Virus record (IMG/VR): IMGVR_UViG_2563366805_000004
Location: 1 to 56,140 of that record
Strand: one strand, 5' to 3'
DNA: 56,140 bases
DNA from: a virus
Lineage: Duplodnaviria > Heunggongvirae > Uroviricota > Caudoviricetes
The position numbers were made by a program, and so were the translations under genes. Shown here one piece after another: positions 43,850 to 49,766 of this stretch; the first letter of the stretch is position 1, and every line of letters starts with the position of its first letter. The notes beneath the pieces were generated by a model. The model saw only the letters and a program-made list of their open reading frames with translations, was not told the origin of the DNA and ran no database searches.

Positions 43850-44067
43850 CAGAACCTCGCCAGCCGGTACCCGGGATGCCCCCGTCGTCGTGTAATCAGA
43901 GCCGCAAGGCGGCGCTCCCACTCCTGCCGTCCCTGCCGGATCTCAGATAAGTTTTCCATGGTCATCTGCTGACCATTAAAGGTGACGGATTTTCCGTCCA
44001 GCACCGCCATTTCAGCTTCCGTATAACGCTGAATCATGGCTTCGATATCATTCTGGTTCATAACCAT
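43849..44067 (-). CDS. W: Head-to-tail joining protein W-like
   Basis: 72 aa; between terminase large subunit and portal; C-terminus RRRGHPGYRLARF resembles lambda W. Confidence 0.6.
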   Translation of the reverse strand: MVMNQNDIEAMIQRYTEAEMAVLDGKSVTFNGQQMTMENLSEIRQGRQEWERRLAALITRRRGHPGYRLARF

Positions 44068-46160
44068 CCTCCGGAAGTCAGCCAGGGGTTAACATCGTCA
44101 GTTACTGTTTTCTTCCGTTTTTGTTTTTTAACAGGCGTGGATACCGGTTCCGGTGAGGGTGACGGTTCGGTACTGTCCGGGACACACTCCAGCCAGGTTT
44201 CCCGGCTCGCCCATTCCGGTACATCCGGCCAGCGGATCTTTTCGTATCCATGCAGAATGACCAGAGCCTCGGCATACACCATCAGGTCAAAGGCTTCGTT
44301 GGCACCGCGCCCCGGCTTACTCCATTTCCCGTCACTGCTCCGCTCTTCATACGTCAGTTCGTCGTAAAACCAGCTCCCCAGCCAGTCAGGAAAATGCACA
44401 TAGCCGGGACCTGGCGAGTCACGCCATAACGCGTTATTCACCCGGTCTTTCAGGGCATCCGTCTGAAGAAGCCAGAGCGGCACATCACCTGCGGCCTGCG
44501 CCCGTCGGCCCGTTCGTCCGGTGTTATCAGGGAATGTACGGGTGATCAGTTTTGCGCGCCGGATGCTGTCGCCCTTAAACAGGTAAATACGTTTACCAAG
44601 GCCATCACGACGGCAACGACGCCAGAATTTATAGGCATTATCAGTGACCCCGTCTTCACCGCCGGAGTCCACCGCCATTGCCATCAGTCGCATTTGTTGA
44701 GAAGGATCGGAGGCCAGCGGCCAGCTTTTATGAAAAACATCCGTCAGCAGGACATCCCAGTCTTCCGGATAGCTGGCCGGATCAATTCGCTGGCTCTCCC
44801 CGTCGCTGTCACCGCGCAATGACTGCGTGATGTTGTAACGATCAATAATCCAGCGTTCGCCACGGCTGCCATAGCCCGTTACCTGAACCACAAAACGGCG
44901 ATGACGTCCCGCCTGCACATCCACTGTCGCCACAAGGAAATTAACGCCATCCGGCACACTGCGGGAAGGAACTGGCTCTGCCCGCTGCTCAAGCAGTTCA
45001 CTTTTTCGTTGCTCCATGCTGGCGCGGGGAAGATAAGGTAATCCCCAGTCAGTATTGATAACCGCCCTGAGTGTTTCTTCACTTCCGGTTGTCTCGTATT
45101 CCTGTTCTGCAGTAAGCAGTTTGTAAACGAGTTGCGAGAGTGTCTGGTAAGCAGCTGCCGGACCCTCCATCCAGAATGACGCAATACGTGAGCGTCGGGG
45201 ATCACCATAACGACTACCATCCGCATTGATGGATTCACCATCCCGCAACCAGACCCCACGTCCGTTCAGCTCACGTTTTTGTTCAGGCATAATCCGTCCT
45301 GAACAGGAAGGACACTGAATATAAGCCGCCTCACTTGCCAGCACGGGATCGGCAATATCACGGAAACCAGCAACCACATCGCCGCAGGGCTGAAAATACT
45401 CACCACAGTGTGGACAGGGCCAGTACCAGCGACGGCGATCGCCACGGTTATAGAGCGACAGTATCCCCGTGGTTGGTGGAGCCTCATGCGGTGAAGTCCG
45501 TCGCCATTTCACATCCTTCACATCCCTGCCGGGGGAACTCTCCACCAGCGTCATACCACTGGACATAAATGTTGTGGTACGTTTTGAGGCAAGAGAGAAA
45601 GCATCCCCCTCGCCATCAATATCTTCCGGAAAACGGTCATAATCCGTCAGCGCGACGCATTTATAATCTGATGAGGACATGATATTGACTGACGGCCAGC
45701 CGATTTTCAGGTAGTTACCAGCAAGGAATGTTCTGTCATAAACGTTGTTGTCATTTTTGTTCGGACTCAGGCGACTGACCACTTCCGGGCTGACGCGAAT
45801 CGTTCTGGCGAGTCGTTTTTTGGAGTGTTCGCGGGCTTTTTCCTCCGTCATCTGAATGATCAGCATATCAGCAGGATCGCAAATCACGTTGTAAATCACC
45901 CAGCCGTCAATCAGGCCGATAGTCTTGCCGGTTCGTGCCGGGCCAACAAATATCACTGCGTCGTATTCACGCGAGGCCAGGCAGTTCATCGGCTCAATAA
46001 CATACGGTGCCACCAGCGGATCCCACGGGACTGAGTTCCCTGCCCCCATGGGCACCCGCATATACTGAGCAACGGCATCAGCAACCCGCATTCGCCTCGG
46101 TGCGCGAAGGATATAACCTGAATCGGTTCGTGCTGCCTTTGCGGTTTCCTGATTCAGCAT
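44058..46160 (-). CDS. Terminase large subunit (lambda GpA family)
   Basis: 700 aa; Walker A VGPARTGKT and CPHCGEYF zinc-binding motif. Confidence 0.85.
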   Translation of the reverse strand: MLNQETAKAARTDSGYILRAPRRMRVADAVAQYMRVPMGAGNSVPWDPLVAPYVIEPMNCLASREYDAVIFVGPARTGKTIGLIDGWVIYNVICDPADMLIIQMTEEKAREHSKKRLARTIRVSPEVVSRLSPNKNDNNVYDRTFLAGNYLKIGWPSVNIMSSSDYKCVALTDYDRFPEDIDGEGDAFSLASKRTTTFMSSGMTLVESSPGRDVKDVKWRRTSPHEAPPTTGILSLYNRGDRRRWYWPCPHCGEYFQPCGDVVAGFRDIADPVLASEAAYIQCPSCSGRIMPEQKRELNGRGVWLRDGESINADGSRYGDPRRSRIASFWMEGPAAAYQTLSQLVYKLLTAEQEYETTGSEETLRAVINTDWGLPYLPRASMEQRKSELLEQRAEPVPSRSVPDGVNFLVATVDVQAGRHRRFVVQVTGYGSRGERWIIDRYNITQSLRGDSDGESQRIDPASYPEDWDVLLTDVFHKSWPLASDPSQQMRLMAMAVDSGGEDGVTDNAYKFWRRCRRDGLGKRIYLFKGDSIRRAKLITRTFPDNTGRTGRRAQAAGDVPLWLLQTDALKDRVNNALWRDSPGPGYVHFPDWLGSWFYDELTYEERSSDGKWSKPGRGANEAFDLMVYAEALVILHGYEKIRWPDVPEWASRETWLECVPDSTEPSPSPEPVSTPVKKQKRKKTVTDDVNPWLTSGGWL

Positions 46161-46654
46161 TACTCCTCCTGCTGTAATTCCTCCTCATCATCCGCACCTG
46201 CTTCGGTCACCCGCAGGGCTATCTGATCGCGCAGATCATCAATAATGGACTGAACACGGCTCACAGCGGCAGGCTGCAGACCGCAGTCACGTTCCAGAAT
46301 ATCCGGTAATGTCTCCAGCACCTGCACGACCGCTTTTGCCCAGATGGCAAACTCCCGTCTGACATCACTGGCCGGAATGAGTTGCGCCGTTTCCTGTTCG
46401 AACTTAAGACGCTCACGTTCAGACTGATACCAGGCTTTGCGCTCATGCGCGTCCATTTCGCCTTCTGCAACCGGCGGTGGTAATGCCAGAAATGCCGACA
46501 CAATATCAACCACCCGATAAAGCTTGAGGTTGCTTTCATGCCCCCCTGCAACGGGTAGATTTTGCAGCCTTGCCGCAGCAGTCTGGCGATGTACACCTGA
46601 CAGTGCCGCCAGTTGACTGATATTCAGCGTCAGATTTTTTAACTCTCGATCCAT
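46160..46654 (-). CDS. Terminase small subunit
   Basis: 164 aa; N-terminal HTH (LNISQLAALSGVHRQTAAARL), acidic C-terminus; 1-nt overlap with large subunit. Confidence 0.6.
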   Translation of the reverse strand: MDRELKNLTLNISQLAALSGVHRQTAAARLQNLPVAGGHESNLKLYRVVDIVSAFLALPPPVAEGEMDAHERKAWYQSERERLKFEQETAQLIPASDVRREFAIWAKAVVQVLETLPDILERDCGLQPAAVSRVQSIIDDLRDQIALRVTEAGADDEEELQQEE

Positions 46655-47469
46655 ACCCGCTCCAGAATGTTTTAAACATGCATCTTGCGAACAACTTTAG
46701 GCAAACGGTGTTAGTGATGAACAAAAAACAATCAAAATCGACACCATAAAAATAAAACCAATGTAATATCAATGCATTACAGTAGTGGTGATGACGAATG
46801 AAATTTCAAAAACTAGCCTTTTCCCGCGCCGCTCCCGCCCCGTGGCAGGCCACCCCACCGGGAGGACCCGTCAGCCTGACAGCTCTGACGAACGTCTGAT
46901 ACAACGCCTTGCATGAATGGCATCGGGATAATCCAGAAAGGCATAGCATCGCGCCCACAAGAATCTGTGTAAGTGTCCTGTTTCTTCCACCCCCGCACAG
47001 GACTGGCGAGCATGAGGGACAAACCCGCGAACCATAAACGCGGTAAAAACCCGGTGTGCATCGTTTTTGATTATTCCCGCACACTCGCGCAGAAGGAGTT
47101 CCCCGTCGGGCTACGGTCTCTGTTAATACGGGAATACGGCGACGATACAGCGCATGATGTGTCAGGCTTGAATACCTTTATCCGTTAAAAGGGATATCAG
47201 TTAAGCTATCCCGTGTAGGGTATAAGCCATTATCAAAGCCACTCTGTAGGGAGTGGCTTTTGTAATGGCAATAAAAAGCCCCGCGAATGCGAGGCTAAAT
47301 CCTGGTATTTGTAATGACTGGCTCTTATCTCAACGCAGCCCCTTACCGCGCGCAAGATGCTCAATATCAAGCATCAGCAATGAGATGTTTAATCTGGATT
47401 CACTCCAGAAGTGATCACCATCCTGTCTACAGAGCCAGATGTGAAGGATGATGAGTAAAATTATCGCTA

Positions 47470-47937
47470 TCATCGAAGGCATTGCGTCCTGATGTATTCC
47501 TGAAGCGTTCTCAGTGCTGTTTGGTCGCGGATAATTCCGTCCCGGATACCGAGAACGTTTCGTCCAGCAACTGGAGAGAGTTCGACGGTGGCATCATTGC
47601 CCATGCCGGAGGCGCTGGAGGTTTCGGCTGAGGATGGCACAGGGCATTTTCCTTTGACGAACACCCGACCACCATTATCAAGCTTGCGCCGAAGAGCATC
47701 ATTTTTAGCTTTCGCATCAGCTAACTCCTTCGTGTATTTAGCATCGAGTGCATCAGCAGAACGCTGGCGCTGCTGCATGTCAGTAATGGTGGCGGTCGCC
47801 TCCTTCAGCTCACTGACTTTTTTATCTCGCTGTTCTTTGTAGGCGATGGCGTTATCACGGTAATGATTGACCGCCCACGACAGGCAGACGATGATGCAGA
47901 TAACCAGAGCGGAGATAATCGCGGTTACTCTGCTCAT
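47470..47937 (-). CDS. Rz: i-spanin Rz
   Basis: N-terminal TM anchor then coiled-coil; 4-nt overlap with endolysin stop. Confidence 0.75.
47511..47717 (-). CDS. Rz1: o-spanin Rz1 (embedded in Rz, +1 frame)
   Basis: Lipobox (VVGC) followed by Pro-rich segment [11 protein letters not shown], fully nested in Rz. Confidence 0.65.
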
Positions 47938-48431
47938 TGTTGCCCCCACAAACAGACTTCACGCTCAATCTCACGACGAGTCATCAGGCCTTTCCATTGC
48001 TTACCGCCAGCGTATATCCAGCGACGTAGCTGGTCACATGCGCCTTTGATATCGCCCTGGTTTATTTTGCGAAGAAGCGTCGATGTTCTGAAATTGCCAG
48101 CACCCACGTTGTAGACGAACGAGTAAAGAGCGCCGCGCGTTGTTTCCGGTATATCGACTTTGATGTACGGGTTAATTTGTCTGGCAACCGTGGCAAGGTC
48201 TTTATTCAGGAGGGCTTTGCATTCTGCTTCGGTATACGTTTTACCGAGCATGATGTCTTTTCCGGTGTGTCCGTGACATACAGTCCATACGCCAACGATA
48301 TCTTTGTATGGTATGTAACTGACACCTTCCAGGCCATCGTCACCACTTGGGCCAGTGATTAACACTGATGCTATAGCAATTGCTCCGCCACCAATAGCAG
48401 CAGCAACTGCTTTTCGTAATGATGGAGGCAT
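47934..48431 (-). CDS. R: SAR endolysin (T4-lysozyme-like, R21-type)
   Basis: N-terminal Gly/Ala-rich SAR domain [17 protein letters not shown]; lysozyme catalytic region. Confidence 0.85.
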
Positions 48432-48646
48432 TATTCACCTCTCGCAGCCTTGCGCTTATCTTCTTTAATCTTGAAATAAAGGTTTGTCAGGTACGTCAGC
48501 AGGCCAAATACCAGACTACCCAGCACACCTATTGCCGCCCACTGTGAGGGCGTGACTTTATCGAGCAACTGTAAAAACCAGTACCCGGCACTACCTGCTG
48601 AGGTGCCATAGGCGACACCCGTTGTTAACTTATCCATGGATTTCAT
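48431..48646 (-). CDS. S: Class II holin (S21-type), dual-start motif
   Basis: Start [26 protein letters not shown] with GAGGTGGGG RBS; MKSM dual start typical of antiholin/holin pair. Confidence 0.8.
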
Positions 48647-48713
48647 AACCCCACCTCGCAGATGCGGGTGCTGTGTAATGGAAATAAAAAGGCCACCTGA
48701 CGTGGCCACCAGA

Positions 48714-49766
48714 TTATTTCCCCACCAGCTCGTTTATCTCTTTCACTGTCTGGTTAAACCGCTCTGACTCAAGCTCAACACCTAAGGCCCGACGCCCCAG
48801 CGCCATTGCTGCTTTTATTGTGGAACCGGATCCCATAAAAAAATCAGCAACCAGATCACCAGGTCGACTACTGGCATTGATTATTTGCCTGAGCATATCC
48901 ACTGGTTTCTCACACGGATGTTTACCCGGGTAGAACTGAACGGGTTTATGCATCCAGACATCGGTATAAGGCACGGAGACTGATACGGAGAAATAGCGCC
49001 GGAGAGATTTAAACTCATCCAGCAATTCAGAATATTTGCGATTCAGTGAATCATAAGATGCCACCAGCTGGTGGTGTGGTTGTTCCAGTTGTTGTTCCTG
49101 AAACTTCTCTGCCGCTATACGGGAAAACAGTGCCTGTAACTTCCGATAGTCAGCCTCATTCGGCAACTGCCACTGACTGGCACCAAACCAGTGGGAAACC
49201 ATATTTTTCTTACCTGTGGCTTCGGCAATTTGTTTTGCCGTTATACCCAGTTCGGCACGAGCATCCCTGAAATACGATATCAGCGGTGCCATTATGTGCT
49301 GTTTGAGTTCCCTTTCTTTTGCCGCATAGCCGTCACTTTTGCCGCGATATGGCCCCTGGTAATGTTCAGCAAACAGAACGCGCTCTGTGGCAGGAAAATA
49401 TGCGCGCAGACTTTCTTTATTACACCCATTCCAACGTCCGGACGGCTTCGCCCAGATGATATGGTTAAGCACGTTGAAACGTTCACGCATCATGATCTCA
49501 ATATCAGATGCCAGGCGATGCCCACAGAACAGGTAAAGGCTTCCGGCAGGTTTCAACACCCGCCAGAACTGGGCCAGACAGTGGTCCAGCCACTTAAGGT
49601 AATCTTCGTCCCCTTTCCACTGATTGTCCCAACCGTTGGGTTTCACCTTGAAGTAAGGCGGATCGGTAACAATCAGGTCAATGGAATCATCAGGCAGGGA
49701 CTGAATAAAATGCAGGCAATCAGCGTTGATTAAATCAACACTGTTTATTTTTACAGTATTTTTCAT
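48714..49766 (-). CDS. Phage DNA N6/N4 methyltransferase
   Basis: 350 aa; TDPPYF motif near N-terminus and FMGSGST near C-terminus. Confidence 0.8.

What the first reader, a model, noticed from the sequence alone, without database searches (positions are those of the whole stretch)
46655..47469. ~800-bp non-coding region between Rz and the small terminase gene, probable cos/packaging region
No convincing ORF lies here. The region contains a GC-rich segment (about 46820-46860), several hairpins including a 9-bp stem at 47236-47262, and is where a lambda-family terminase would need cos. I could not recognise the lambda cosN sequence, so the packaging site may be divergent.
Basis: inference. Interest (0 to 1): 0.25.

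Follow-up and report, generated by a model that had tools for sequence, protein, structure and literature searches.

The report
Lambda-type cos site of an E. coli prophage

Summary
The 815-bp gap (46655-47469) is real and lies between Rz and a DUF1441-type small terminase gene, all on the minus strand. Read on the minus strand, 46869-46808 is GGGTCCT (cosQ, identical to lambda), a 22-nt spacer, CG|GGGCGGGAGCGG|CG (cosN), then CGGGAAAAGGCTAGTTTTT. The left half of the 12-nt end and both flanking CG pairs match lambda; five of the six right-half bases differ. That is the variation pattern published for lambda-like phages.

The deposited genomes of phages cdtI, LLS, yong2 and lambda are cut exactly at the homologous positions. 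The cdtI large terminase is 88% identical to the one here. Between cosN and terS lie three copies of TCRWCACYA arranged forward, inverted, forward, with a perfect IHF consensus after the first. This is lambda's R3-I1-R2-R1 layout.

The remaining 600 bp holds a strong back-to-back hairpin pair, small ORFs with no coding support, and a 185-bp non-coding segment. That segment is shared by about 70% of complete E. coli genomes and by lambda itself, and its function is unknown.

This is a known kind of site, and interest is low.

The parts
46863..46869 (-). cosQ, GGGTCCT. This is the packaging-termination signal.
   Evidence: Identical to lambda bp 48473-48479, with 22 nt to the predicted nick against 23 in lambda. 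Also present in cdtI, LLS, yong2, PhiR40_1 and CP-1639. cosQ is reported as invariant among lambda-like phages (PMC4669245).
46827..46842 (-). cosN, CG|GGGCGGGAGCGG|CG. The predicted 12-nt 5' cohesive end is 46840..46829, and the predicted nicks fall between 46841/46840 (top strand) and 46829/46828 (bottom strand).
   Evidence: Aligns base for base with lambda ACG|GGGCGGCGACCT|CGCGGG. The cdtI record ends ...CCACG and starts GGGCGGGAGCGT CGCGG. The yong2 record is cut at the second nick, and the LLS record is annotated with a 5' cohesive end. The nick positions are inferred by homology and were not measured for this phage.
46808..46828 (-). Conserved right flank of cosN (bp 13-33), CGCGGGAAAAGGCTAGTTTTT.
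   Evidence: Shared as CGCGG(G/A)AA..GGCT.GTTTTT with cdtI, LLS, yong2, PhiR40_1, Chris1 and Gifsy-2, and more loosely with lambda (CGCGGGTTTTCGCTATTTATG).
46786..46794 (-). Candidate R3, TCATCACCA (bp 47-55 from the cohesive end). Predicted TerS binding site.
   Evidence: One of three TCRWCACYA matches clustered in 83 bp; the whole 56-kb window has 9 against 3.1 expected. The position matches lambda R3 (bp 50-65) and N15 R3 (bp 48-59). The motif was derived from these same sites, so the count is partly circular.
46767..46779 (+). Candidate I1, a perfect IHF consensus TATCAATGCATTA (bp 62-74).
   Evidence: One of only 4 perfect WATCAANNNNTTR matches in the window, lying between R3 and R2. By my own reading of the sequences printed (not a tool count), CP-1639 and Chris1 carry perfect matches at about the same place.
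46738..46746 (+). Candidate R2, TCGACACCA, inverted relative to R3 and R1 (bp 95-103).
   Evidence: Relatives carry (A/G)TGTCGAA ... TTCGACA(C/T) inverted repeats at the same place: Gifsy-2 9 bp perfect, PhiR40_1 8 bp.
46712..46720 (-). Candidate R1, TCATCACTA (bp 121-129).
   Evidence: The surrounding TTTTTTGTTCATCAC is conserved in CP-1639, Gifsy-2 and PhiR40_1.
46160..46654 (-). terS, small terminase of the DUF1441 family. Its ATG is at bp 187 from the cohesive end.
   Evidence: Pfam DUF1441 2.7e-41 and PHROG 141 'terminase small subunit' 7e-74. No BLASTP similarity to lambda Nu1.
44058..46160 (-). terL, gpA-type large terminase, the enzyme predicted to nick cosN.
   Evidence: Pfam GpA_ATPase and GpA_nuclease. 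24% identical to lambda gpA, E 1e-18. 88% identical to cdtI TerL.
47277..47296 (-). Intrinsic-terminator-like hairpin on the late-gene strand, AGCCTCGC-ATTC-GCGGGGCT followed by TTTTATT.
   Evidence: The only terminator-like site found by the scan in 46400-47700; folds as predicted.
47226..47269 (.). Long hairpin (inner stem 47235-47260). On the + strand it is followed by TTTTG, so it is a likely terminator for + strand transcripts. Together with 47277-47296 it forms a back-to-back terminator pair.
   Evidence: z = -7.2 and -6.9 on the two strands. Kept in phage 2851 through compensating stem changes, GCCAC/GTGGC to GCCCA/TGGGC. Annotated as a terminator in phage Ayreon.
46976..47160 (-). Widely shared non-coding segment of unknown function. 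It is not part of cos.
   Evidence: Found in 3841 of 5426 complete E. coli genomes, in lambda at 46868-46974 and in K-12 DLP12. No coding signature. The consensus fold favours the late-sense strand, but the single sequence is no more stable than shuffles.
47330..47482 (-). 50-aa ORF overlapping the end of Rz, annotated 'hypothetical protein' in RefSeq. It is doubtful as a gene.
   Evidence: Annotated and matches PHROG 11822, unknown function. Among 11 variants the changes are mostly amino-acid-changing and one variant has an internal stop.

Best explanation
Window 46712-46869 (minus strand) is the cohesive-end site (cos) of a lambdoid prophage of the mEp460/cdtI packaging type.

Inferred mechanism, by analogy with lambda: during lytic growth the small terminase (DUF1441 family, 46160-46654) binds three R sequences (TCRWCACYA) in the AT-rich cosB. 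IHF bends the DNA at a consensus site between R3 and R2. This positions the gpA-type large terminase (44058-46160) on the GC-rich cosN, where it makes two nicks 12 bp apart. The result is a 5' overhang GGGCGGGAGCGG (46840..46829). Packaging then runs leftwards through terS and terL and ends at the next cos, where the upstream cosQ (GGGTCCT, 46863-46869) is needed for the final cut.

What is shown here: the sequence homology of cosQ, cosN and its right flank; the terminase families; and the fact that related deposited phage genomes are cut at exactly these positions.

What is inferred: the nick positions in this phage, the overhang length, and TerS and IHF binding.

The remaining 600 bp is not cos. 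It holds a back-to-back terminator pair closing the lysis cassette, and a widely exchanged non-coding segment.
For: 1. Sequence. The minus strand reads GACGGGTCCT-CCCGGTGGGGTGGCCTGCCACG|GGGCGGGAGCGG|CGCGGGAAAAGGCTAGTTTTTGAAATTT. Lambda reads GACGGGTCCT-TTCCGGTGATCCGACAGGTTACG|GGGCGGCGACCT|CGCGGGTTTTCGCTATTTATGAAAATTT.

2. Published rules for lambda-like cos (PMC4669245): bp 1-6 and the CG pairs flanking both nicks are conserved, bp 7-12 vary freely, and cosQ is invariant. All of these hold here.

3. Proxy for physical ends. The cdtI record ends ...GGCCTGCCACG and starts GGGCGGGAGCGTCGCGGAAAAAGGCTAGTTTTT, and its TerL is 88% identical to the one here. The yong2 record ends with cosQ, 22 nt and a 12-mer, and starts CGCGGGAAACGG. 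LLS carries an annotated 5' cohesive end. Cr-LKS3, whose TerS is of the same family, is reported to have 5'-extended cohesive ends starting GGGC, with the same flanking bases (PMC9303873).

4. Viable phages mEp460 and vB_EcoS-569R4 carry this cos with a near-identical TerS.

5. The Ayreon virion-DNA assembly has a chimeric insert, built partly from terS sequence, that replaces exactly the cohesive-end bases. An assembler would be expected to fail at a physical end in this way.

6. cosB. Three TCRWCACYA copies lie in 83 bp, oriented forward, inverted, forward, with one of only four perfect IHF consensus matches in the window lying between the first two. The terS ATG is 187 bp from the end, against 191 in lambda.

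7. The terminase is gpA-type.

8. The site is the most GC-rich 41-mer of the window, next to a 34% G+C cosB.
Against: No end mapping exists for this prophage or, as far as I could verify, for mEp460 or Ayreon. The Ayreon authors state only that cos is expected within about 1 kb upstream of terS.

I could not read the cdtI paper, so I do not know whether the cdtI record start was measured or set by homology.

The mEp460_4F5 record is broken 5 nt upstream of the predicted nick and lacks 3 nt inside the cohesive end. This does not fit the predicted nick exactly.

Only 8 of the 16 cosN base pairs are rotationally symmetric here, against 10 in lambda. This is my own count from the sequence, not a tool result.

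The R motif was defined from the three sites it is then counted on.

The overhang could be shorter than 12 nt, as in Cr-LKS3 where it is 9 nt.
Confidence: 0.9

Rival explanations
1. The gap is mainly a coding region for small accessory proteins: the 50-aa ORF at 47330-47482 (-), the 58-aa ORF at 47012-47188 (+), or the 82-92-aa ORFs at 46806-47084 (-). The packaging site would then be incidental or elsewhere.
For: These ORFs are annotated in some records. The 50-aa and 82-aa ORFs match PHROGs 11822 and 17397. The + frame is open in 54 of 56 variants of the conserved core. 73 database clusters resemble the 58-aa ORF.
Against: None has a Pfam or NCBIfam family.

The 73 clusters are all from Escherichia or Shigella, at least 68% identical, 35-91 aa long and unnamed.

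Variation shows no three-base periodicity. pN/pS is 0.65, no better than two other frames at 0.68 and 0.53. Frameshifting indels are common, and lambda has a 1-nt deletion in the frame.

The 82-92-aa ORFs run across cosN. The Ayreon 'late gene regulator' ORF spans an assembly artefact.

Variants of the 50-aa ORF differ mostly by amino-acid changes, and one has a stop codon.
Confidence: 0.07
2. The phage does not use cos. The sequence is a decayed relic, and DNA is packaged by a headful (pac) mechanism or from a site elsewhere.
For: No ends have been mapped for this prophage. CP-1639, a cryptic relative, has a cosN two bases shorter, which shows that such sites can decay.
Against: gpA-type large terminases go with 5' cohesive ends (PMC12315714).

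All conserved positions of cosQ and cosN are intact.

The same cos is carried by plaque-forming phages mEp460 and vB_EcoS-569R4.

23 of 114 sampled viral contigs keep cosQ-cosN with at most a few substitutions, at a fixed distance from the neighbouring element.
Confidence: 0.03

Closest known systems
cos of phage lambda (cosQ-cosN-cosB, Nu1/gpA terminase)
   Same: cosQ is an identical heptamer. [quoted passage not shown] The CGCGGG right flank is shared. The order is R3-I1-R2-R1. The distance from cosN to the terS start is almost the same (187 against 191 bp). The large terminase is gpA-type.
   Different: Five of the six right-half bases of the cohesive end differ (GAGCGG against CGACCT). The cosQ-cosN spacer is 22 nt, not 23. 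The R sequences are unrelated to lambda's. The small terminase belongs to another family (DUF1441, with no BLASTP similarity to Nu1). TerL is only 24% identical to gpA.
cos of phage cdtI (AB285204) and of mEp460-like phages
   Same: cosQ, the spacer, cosN (GGGCGGGAGCGT against ...GCGG here) and the right flank are nearly identical. TerL is 88% identical. mEp460 has the same GGGCGGGAGCGG and a 99% identical TerS.
   Different: The cdtI TerS is only about 42% identical, and its cosB region is unrelated after bp ~33. This shows that cosN goes with TerL and cosB goes with TerS.
cos of Gifsy-2 / mEp213 / LLS / Hafnia phage yong2 (DUF1441 TerS group)
   Same: The TerS family is the same (47-58% identity). 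They share the conserved CGCGG..GGCT.GTTTTT flank and a TGTCGAA ... TTCGACA-type inverted repeat upstream of terS.
   Different: Their cohesive ends differ, for example GGGCGGCGCGCT in LLS and GGGGCAGCGACA in yong2. Their cosB is shorter, with terS starting at bp 119-130.

Membership tests
lambda-like cos site | [quoted passage not shown] | tested here: met
   GGGCGG|GAGCGG against GGGCGG|CGACCT: 6 of 6 in the left half and 1 of 6 in the right half. The rule is from PMC4669245. The overhang length and polarity are inferred, not measured.
lambda-like cos site | 5'-CG-3' flanking each nick | tested here: met
   CG at 46842-46841 and at 46828-46827, 12 bp apart.
lambda-like cos site | cosQ heptamer GGGTCCT about 20-25 bp upstream of cosN | tested here: met
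   46869-46863, 22 nt before the predicted nick.
lambda-like cos site | cosB between cosN and terS with TerS-binding repeats R3, R2 (inverted) and R1, and an IHF site between R3 and R2 | tested here: inconclusive
   Three TCRWCACYA copies in the right orientations, with a perfect IHF consensus between the first two. The motif was derived from the same sites, and no binding data exist.
lambda-like cos site | Adjacent gpA-family large terminase | tested here: met
   Pfam GpA_ATPase 5e-72 and GpA_nuclease 3e-85; BLASTP to lambda gpA E 1e-18.
lambda-like cos site | Virion DNA ends map to the site | not testable with these tools
   Only proxies are available: the record ends of cdtI, yong2, LLS and Cr-LKS3, and an assembly artefact in Ayreon.
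lambda packaging specificity (Nu1 / cosB-lambda) | Nu1-family TerS and lambda R sequences | tested here: not met
   TerS is DUF1441 with no BLASTP similarity to Nu1. The R candidates are unrelated to lambda's R3 sequence. The site therefore works like lambda cos but should not be packaged by lambda terminase.
Rfam RNA families (for the rest of the gap) | Match reaching a family's gathering score | tested here: not met
   The best hits were mir-458 at 24.5 bits (gathering 59) and STnc560 at 21.1 bits (gathering 55). Both fall on the hairpin pair, and none falls on the conserved core. No tRNA was found.

The most novel reading that the evidence does not exclude
The 185-bp segment at 46976-47160 may be a functional structured RNA within the late transcript of Escherichia lambdoid phages. 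It is unannotated even in lambda (46868-46974, between bor and lambdap78) and in K-12 DLP12. It could be, for example, a processing or stabilising element at the boundary between the lysis and packaging messages. It would have been overlooked because it lies among accessory genes on the opposite strand.

Support: the consensus fold favours the late-sense strand (-24.65 against -7.65 kcal/mol; 182 against 5 G-U cells). Several pairs run through C:G, U:G and U:A states. A second sample chosen without bias on the helices added two more compensated pairs.

Against: the single sequence folds no better than shuffles. Some phages carry only half of the segment. Two variants have an uncompensated C-A mismatch. 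The segment is confined to one genus, so its conservation may simply reflect recent exchange.
Probability: 0.2. Interest if true: 0.45.

Novelty: already known. Interest (0 to 1): 0.1.

Why it matters
It matters mostly for annotation. The result places the genome ends of this prophage, and of the mEp460/Ayreon group whose published genomes were opened arbitrarily, at 46829-46840. It shows that several annotated ORFs across the site are spurious, one of them being an assembly artefact.

It also illustrates the modular rule that cosN travels with the large terminase and cosB with the small one. cdtI shares cosN and TerL with this prophage but has a different TerS and cosB.

It opens no new question about packaging. 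The only open point is the function, if any, of the widely shared non-coding segment next to cos.

Tried and rejected
Rfam scan of 46000-48200 at a permissive threshold: nothing near any gathering score. tRNA/tmRNA scan of the whole window: none. The promoter scan found nothing above chance.

Pfam, NCBIfam and PHROGs on five candidate small ORFs gave no curated family. The only matches were PHROGs of unknown function, built from the same near-identical phages.

A protein search with the 58-aa + strand ORF found only sporadic Escherichia/Shigella hypotheticals of inconsistent length. Periodicity, open-frame and pN/pS tests gave no coding signal. I first suspected this ORF was a DUF3950 (YlcI/YnfO) gene. 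It is not. In an O103 prophage a real YnfO gene lies next to the segment.

The 'Rha family regulator' label under some matches comes from a 4-nt overlap with a neighbouring gene.

The 'putative late gene regulator' in Ayreon spans a chimeric insert at cos, so I rejected it.

The mEp460 and Ayreon record ends are arbitrary: they were opened at terS. The mEp460_4F5 ends lie 5 nt from the predicted nick, and I treated them as imprecise.

A generic repeat finder did not pick out the R sequences. The PDB sequence search with TerS found nothing.

I could not obtain Vahanian et al. 2017 (the cosN survey) or Asakura et al. 2007 (phage cdtI).

Full report
**Layout.** The late genes of this prophage run on the minus strand. 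In order they are holin (48431-48709), lysozyme (47934-48431), Rz (47470-47949), a gap (46655-47469), a small terminase (46160-46654) and a large terminase (44058-46160). Pfam confirms Rz, assigns the small terminase to DUF1441, and assigns the large one to the gpA family. PHROGs calls the DUF1441 protein a small terminase.

**Check of the observation.** The gap is 815 bp, as stated.
- The GC-rich segment is real and extreme. 46820-46860 is 80% G+C, and the richest 41-mers of the whole 56-kb window start at 46822-46825.
- The hairpin at 47236-47262 is the inner stem of a longer hairpin at 47226-47269. It sits beside a second hairpin at 47277-47296 that is followed by a T-run on the minus strand.
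- The pair folds at -40.9 kcal/mol against -19.2 +/- 3.0 for shuffles.

**The cos site.** Read on the minus strand, 46872-46800 is GACGGGTCCT CCCGGTGGGGTGGCCTGCCACG GGGCGGGAGCGG CGCGGGAAAAGGCTAGTTTTTGAAATTT. Lambda's joined ends read GACGGGTCCT TTCCGGTGATCCGACAGGTTACG GGGCGGCGACCT CGCGGGTTTTCGCTATTTATGAAAATTT.
- cosQ (GGGTCCT) is identical.
- The first six bases of the cohesive end are identical, and a CG pair flanks each predicted nick.
- Five of the last six bases of the end differ.
- Feiss and colleagues describe exactly this pattern for lambda-like phages: bp 7-12 vary freely (N15, Gifsy-1), while bp 1-6, the flanking CG pairs and cosQ are kept (PMC4669245).

**Evidence on the physical ends.** This evidence is indirect.
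- The deposited genome of phage cdtI ends ...GGGTCCTTCCGGTGGGGTGGCCTGCCACG and begins GGGCGGGAGCGTCGCGGAAAAAGGCTAGTTTTT. Its large terminase is 88% identical to the one here.
- Hafnia phage yong2 has a small terminase 57% identical to this one. Its record ends with cosQ, 22 nt and a 12-mer, and begins CGCGGGAAACGG, so it was cut at the second nick.
- Phage LLS is annotated with a 5' cohesive end GGGCGGCGCGCT followed by the same flank. Its authors say this was inferred (PMC12315714).
- The cyanophage Cr-LKS3 has a small terminase of the same family. It is reported to have 5'-extended cohesive ends beginning GGGC, with lambda's flanking bases (PMC9303873).
- Viable phages mEp460 and vB_EcoS-569R4 carry this cos with a 99-100% identical small terminase.
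- The Ayreon record was assembled from virion DNA and opened arbitrarily at terS. It has about 150 nt of unrelated sequence, including a piece of terS, in place of exactly the cohesive-end bases. I read this as an assembly failure at a physical end.
- The mEp460_4F5 record breaks 5 nt upstream of the predicted nick and lacks 3 nt within the end. It points to the same place, but not precisely.

**cosB.** Between cosN and terS the DNA is 34% G+C.
- Three copies of TCRWCACYA lie at bp 47-55, 95-103 (inverted) and 121-129, counted from the first base of the cohesive end. The whole window has nine copies against 3.1 expected.
- One of only four perfect IHF consensus sites in the window lies at bp 62-74, between the first two copies.
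- This is lambda's R3-I1-R2-R1 order, with R3 at lambda's position (PMC9026076; PMC4669245).
- Relatives with the same small-terminase family carry TGTCGAA ... TTCGACA inverted repeats at the same place.
- The motif was defined from these sites, so this part remains a prediction.
- cdtI shares cosN and TerL with this prophage, but its TerS is only 42% identical and its cosB is unrelated. This fits a division of labour in which cosN goes with TerL and cosB goes with TerS.

**The other 600 bp.**
1. *The 50-aa ORF.* It overlaps the end of Rz and is annotated in RefSeq. Its eleven variants differ mostly by amino-acid changes, and one has a stop codon.
2. *The two hairpins.* They form a back-to-back terminator pair. 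Phage 2851 keeps the long one through compensating stem changes.
3. *The shared segment, 46976-47160.*
   - Distribution: it occurs in 3841 of 5426 complete E. coli genomes and in over 300 phage records, including Stx phages with an unrelated terminase. It is in lambda at 46868-46974, between bor and lambdap78, and in the K-12 DLP12 prophage. It is unannotated in lambda and DLP12.
   - Context: it always lies after the lysis cassette and before packaging genes of three different kinds. In a scan of one genome per species it turned up only in Escherichia, apart from tiny contigs that are probably contaminants.
   - Not coding, as far as I can tell: variation has no three-base periodicity, indels are frequent, and pN/pS is no lower than in other frames. 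There is no protein family, and only sporadic Escherichia hypotheticals resemble the ORF.
   - Possible RNA structure: a consensus fold favours the late-gene strand, at -24.65 against -7.65 kcal/mol. 98.8% of cells are paired against 87.9% on the other strand, with 182 against 5 G-U cells, and six pairs have changes on both sides.
   - Caveats: the first sample was selected with a pattern covering half of the helices. A second sample added both compensated and uncompensated changes, plus truncated copies. The single sequence folds no better than shuffles, z = -0.28. I leave its function open.

**Verdict.** The gap contains a lambda-family cos site of a type already represented in public phage genomes and described in the literature. 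It is ordinary, and its value is in annotation.

Noticed in passing
window 46976-47160 (also lambda NC_001416 46868-46974; K-12 DLP12 579009-579116): A ~185-bp non-coding segment shared by about 70% of complete E. coli genomes, by lambda itself and by Stx phages with unrelated terminases. It always lies between the lysis cassette and the packaging genes and is unannotated. The consensus fold favours the late-gene strand with some compensating changes, but the fold is not unusually stable and some copies are truncated.
   Followed up: partly
L001 (phage Ayreon MF807953) locus 2133-2285, equivalent to window ~46838-46823: The deposited Ayreon genome has about 150 nt of chimeric sequence, including a fragment of its own terS, in place of the cohesive-end bases. 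Its annotated 'putative late gene regulator' ORF spans this artefact.
   Followed up: yes
L002/L004 (mEp460_4F5, LR595868) record ends, equivalent to window 46846/46845: The record is opened 5 nt upstream of the predicted nick and reads GGGCGGGAGC-GCGG, three bases shorter than all relatives. This is probably an end-assembly error.
   Followed up: partly
window 47330-47482 (-): A 50-aa ORF overlapping the Rz stop is annotated by RefSeq (WP_001139675) and in several phage records. Its few variants differ mainly by amino-acid changes and one carries a stop codon, so it may not be a gene.
   Followed up: partly
L138 (E. coli O103:H2 FWSEC0007) 2090-2130 and 2301-2495: A related prophage carries a canonical lambda cosN (GGGCGGCGACCT) and lambda's right-end sequence. 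A YlcI/YnfO (DUF3950) gene on the opposite strand sits directly next to the shared 185-bp segment. In K-12 Qin and DLP12 the same small genes lie divergently next to the Nu1 homologues.
   Followed up: partly
L136 (cryptic prophage CP-1639) ~1185-1200: Its cosN reads GGGCGGGCGG, two bases shorter than in relatives. This would fit a decayed packaging site in a cryptic prophage.
   Followed up: no
window 48714-49766 (-): A 350-aa DNA methyltransferase gene lies directly upstream of the holin, inside the late region, as in mEp460-like phages.
   Followed up: no
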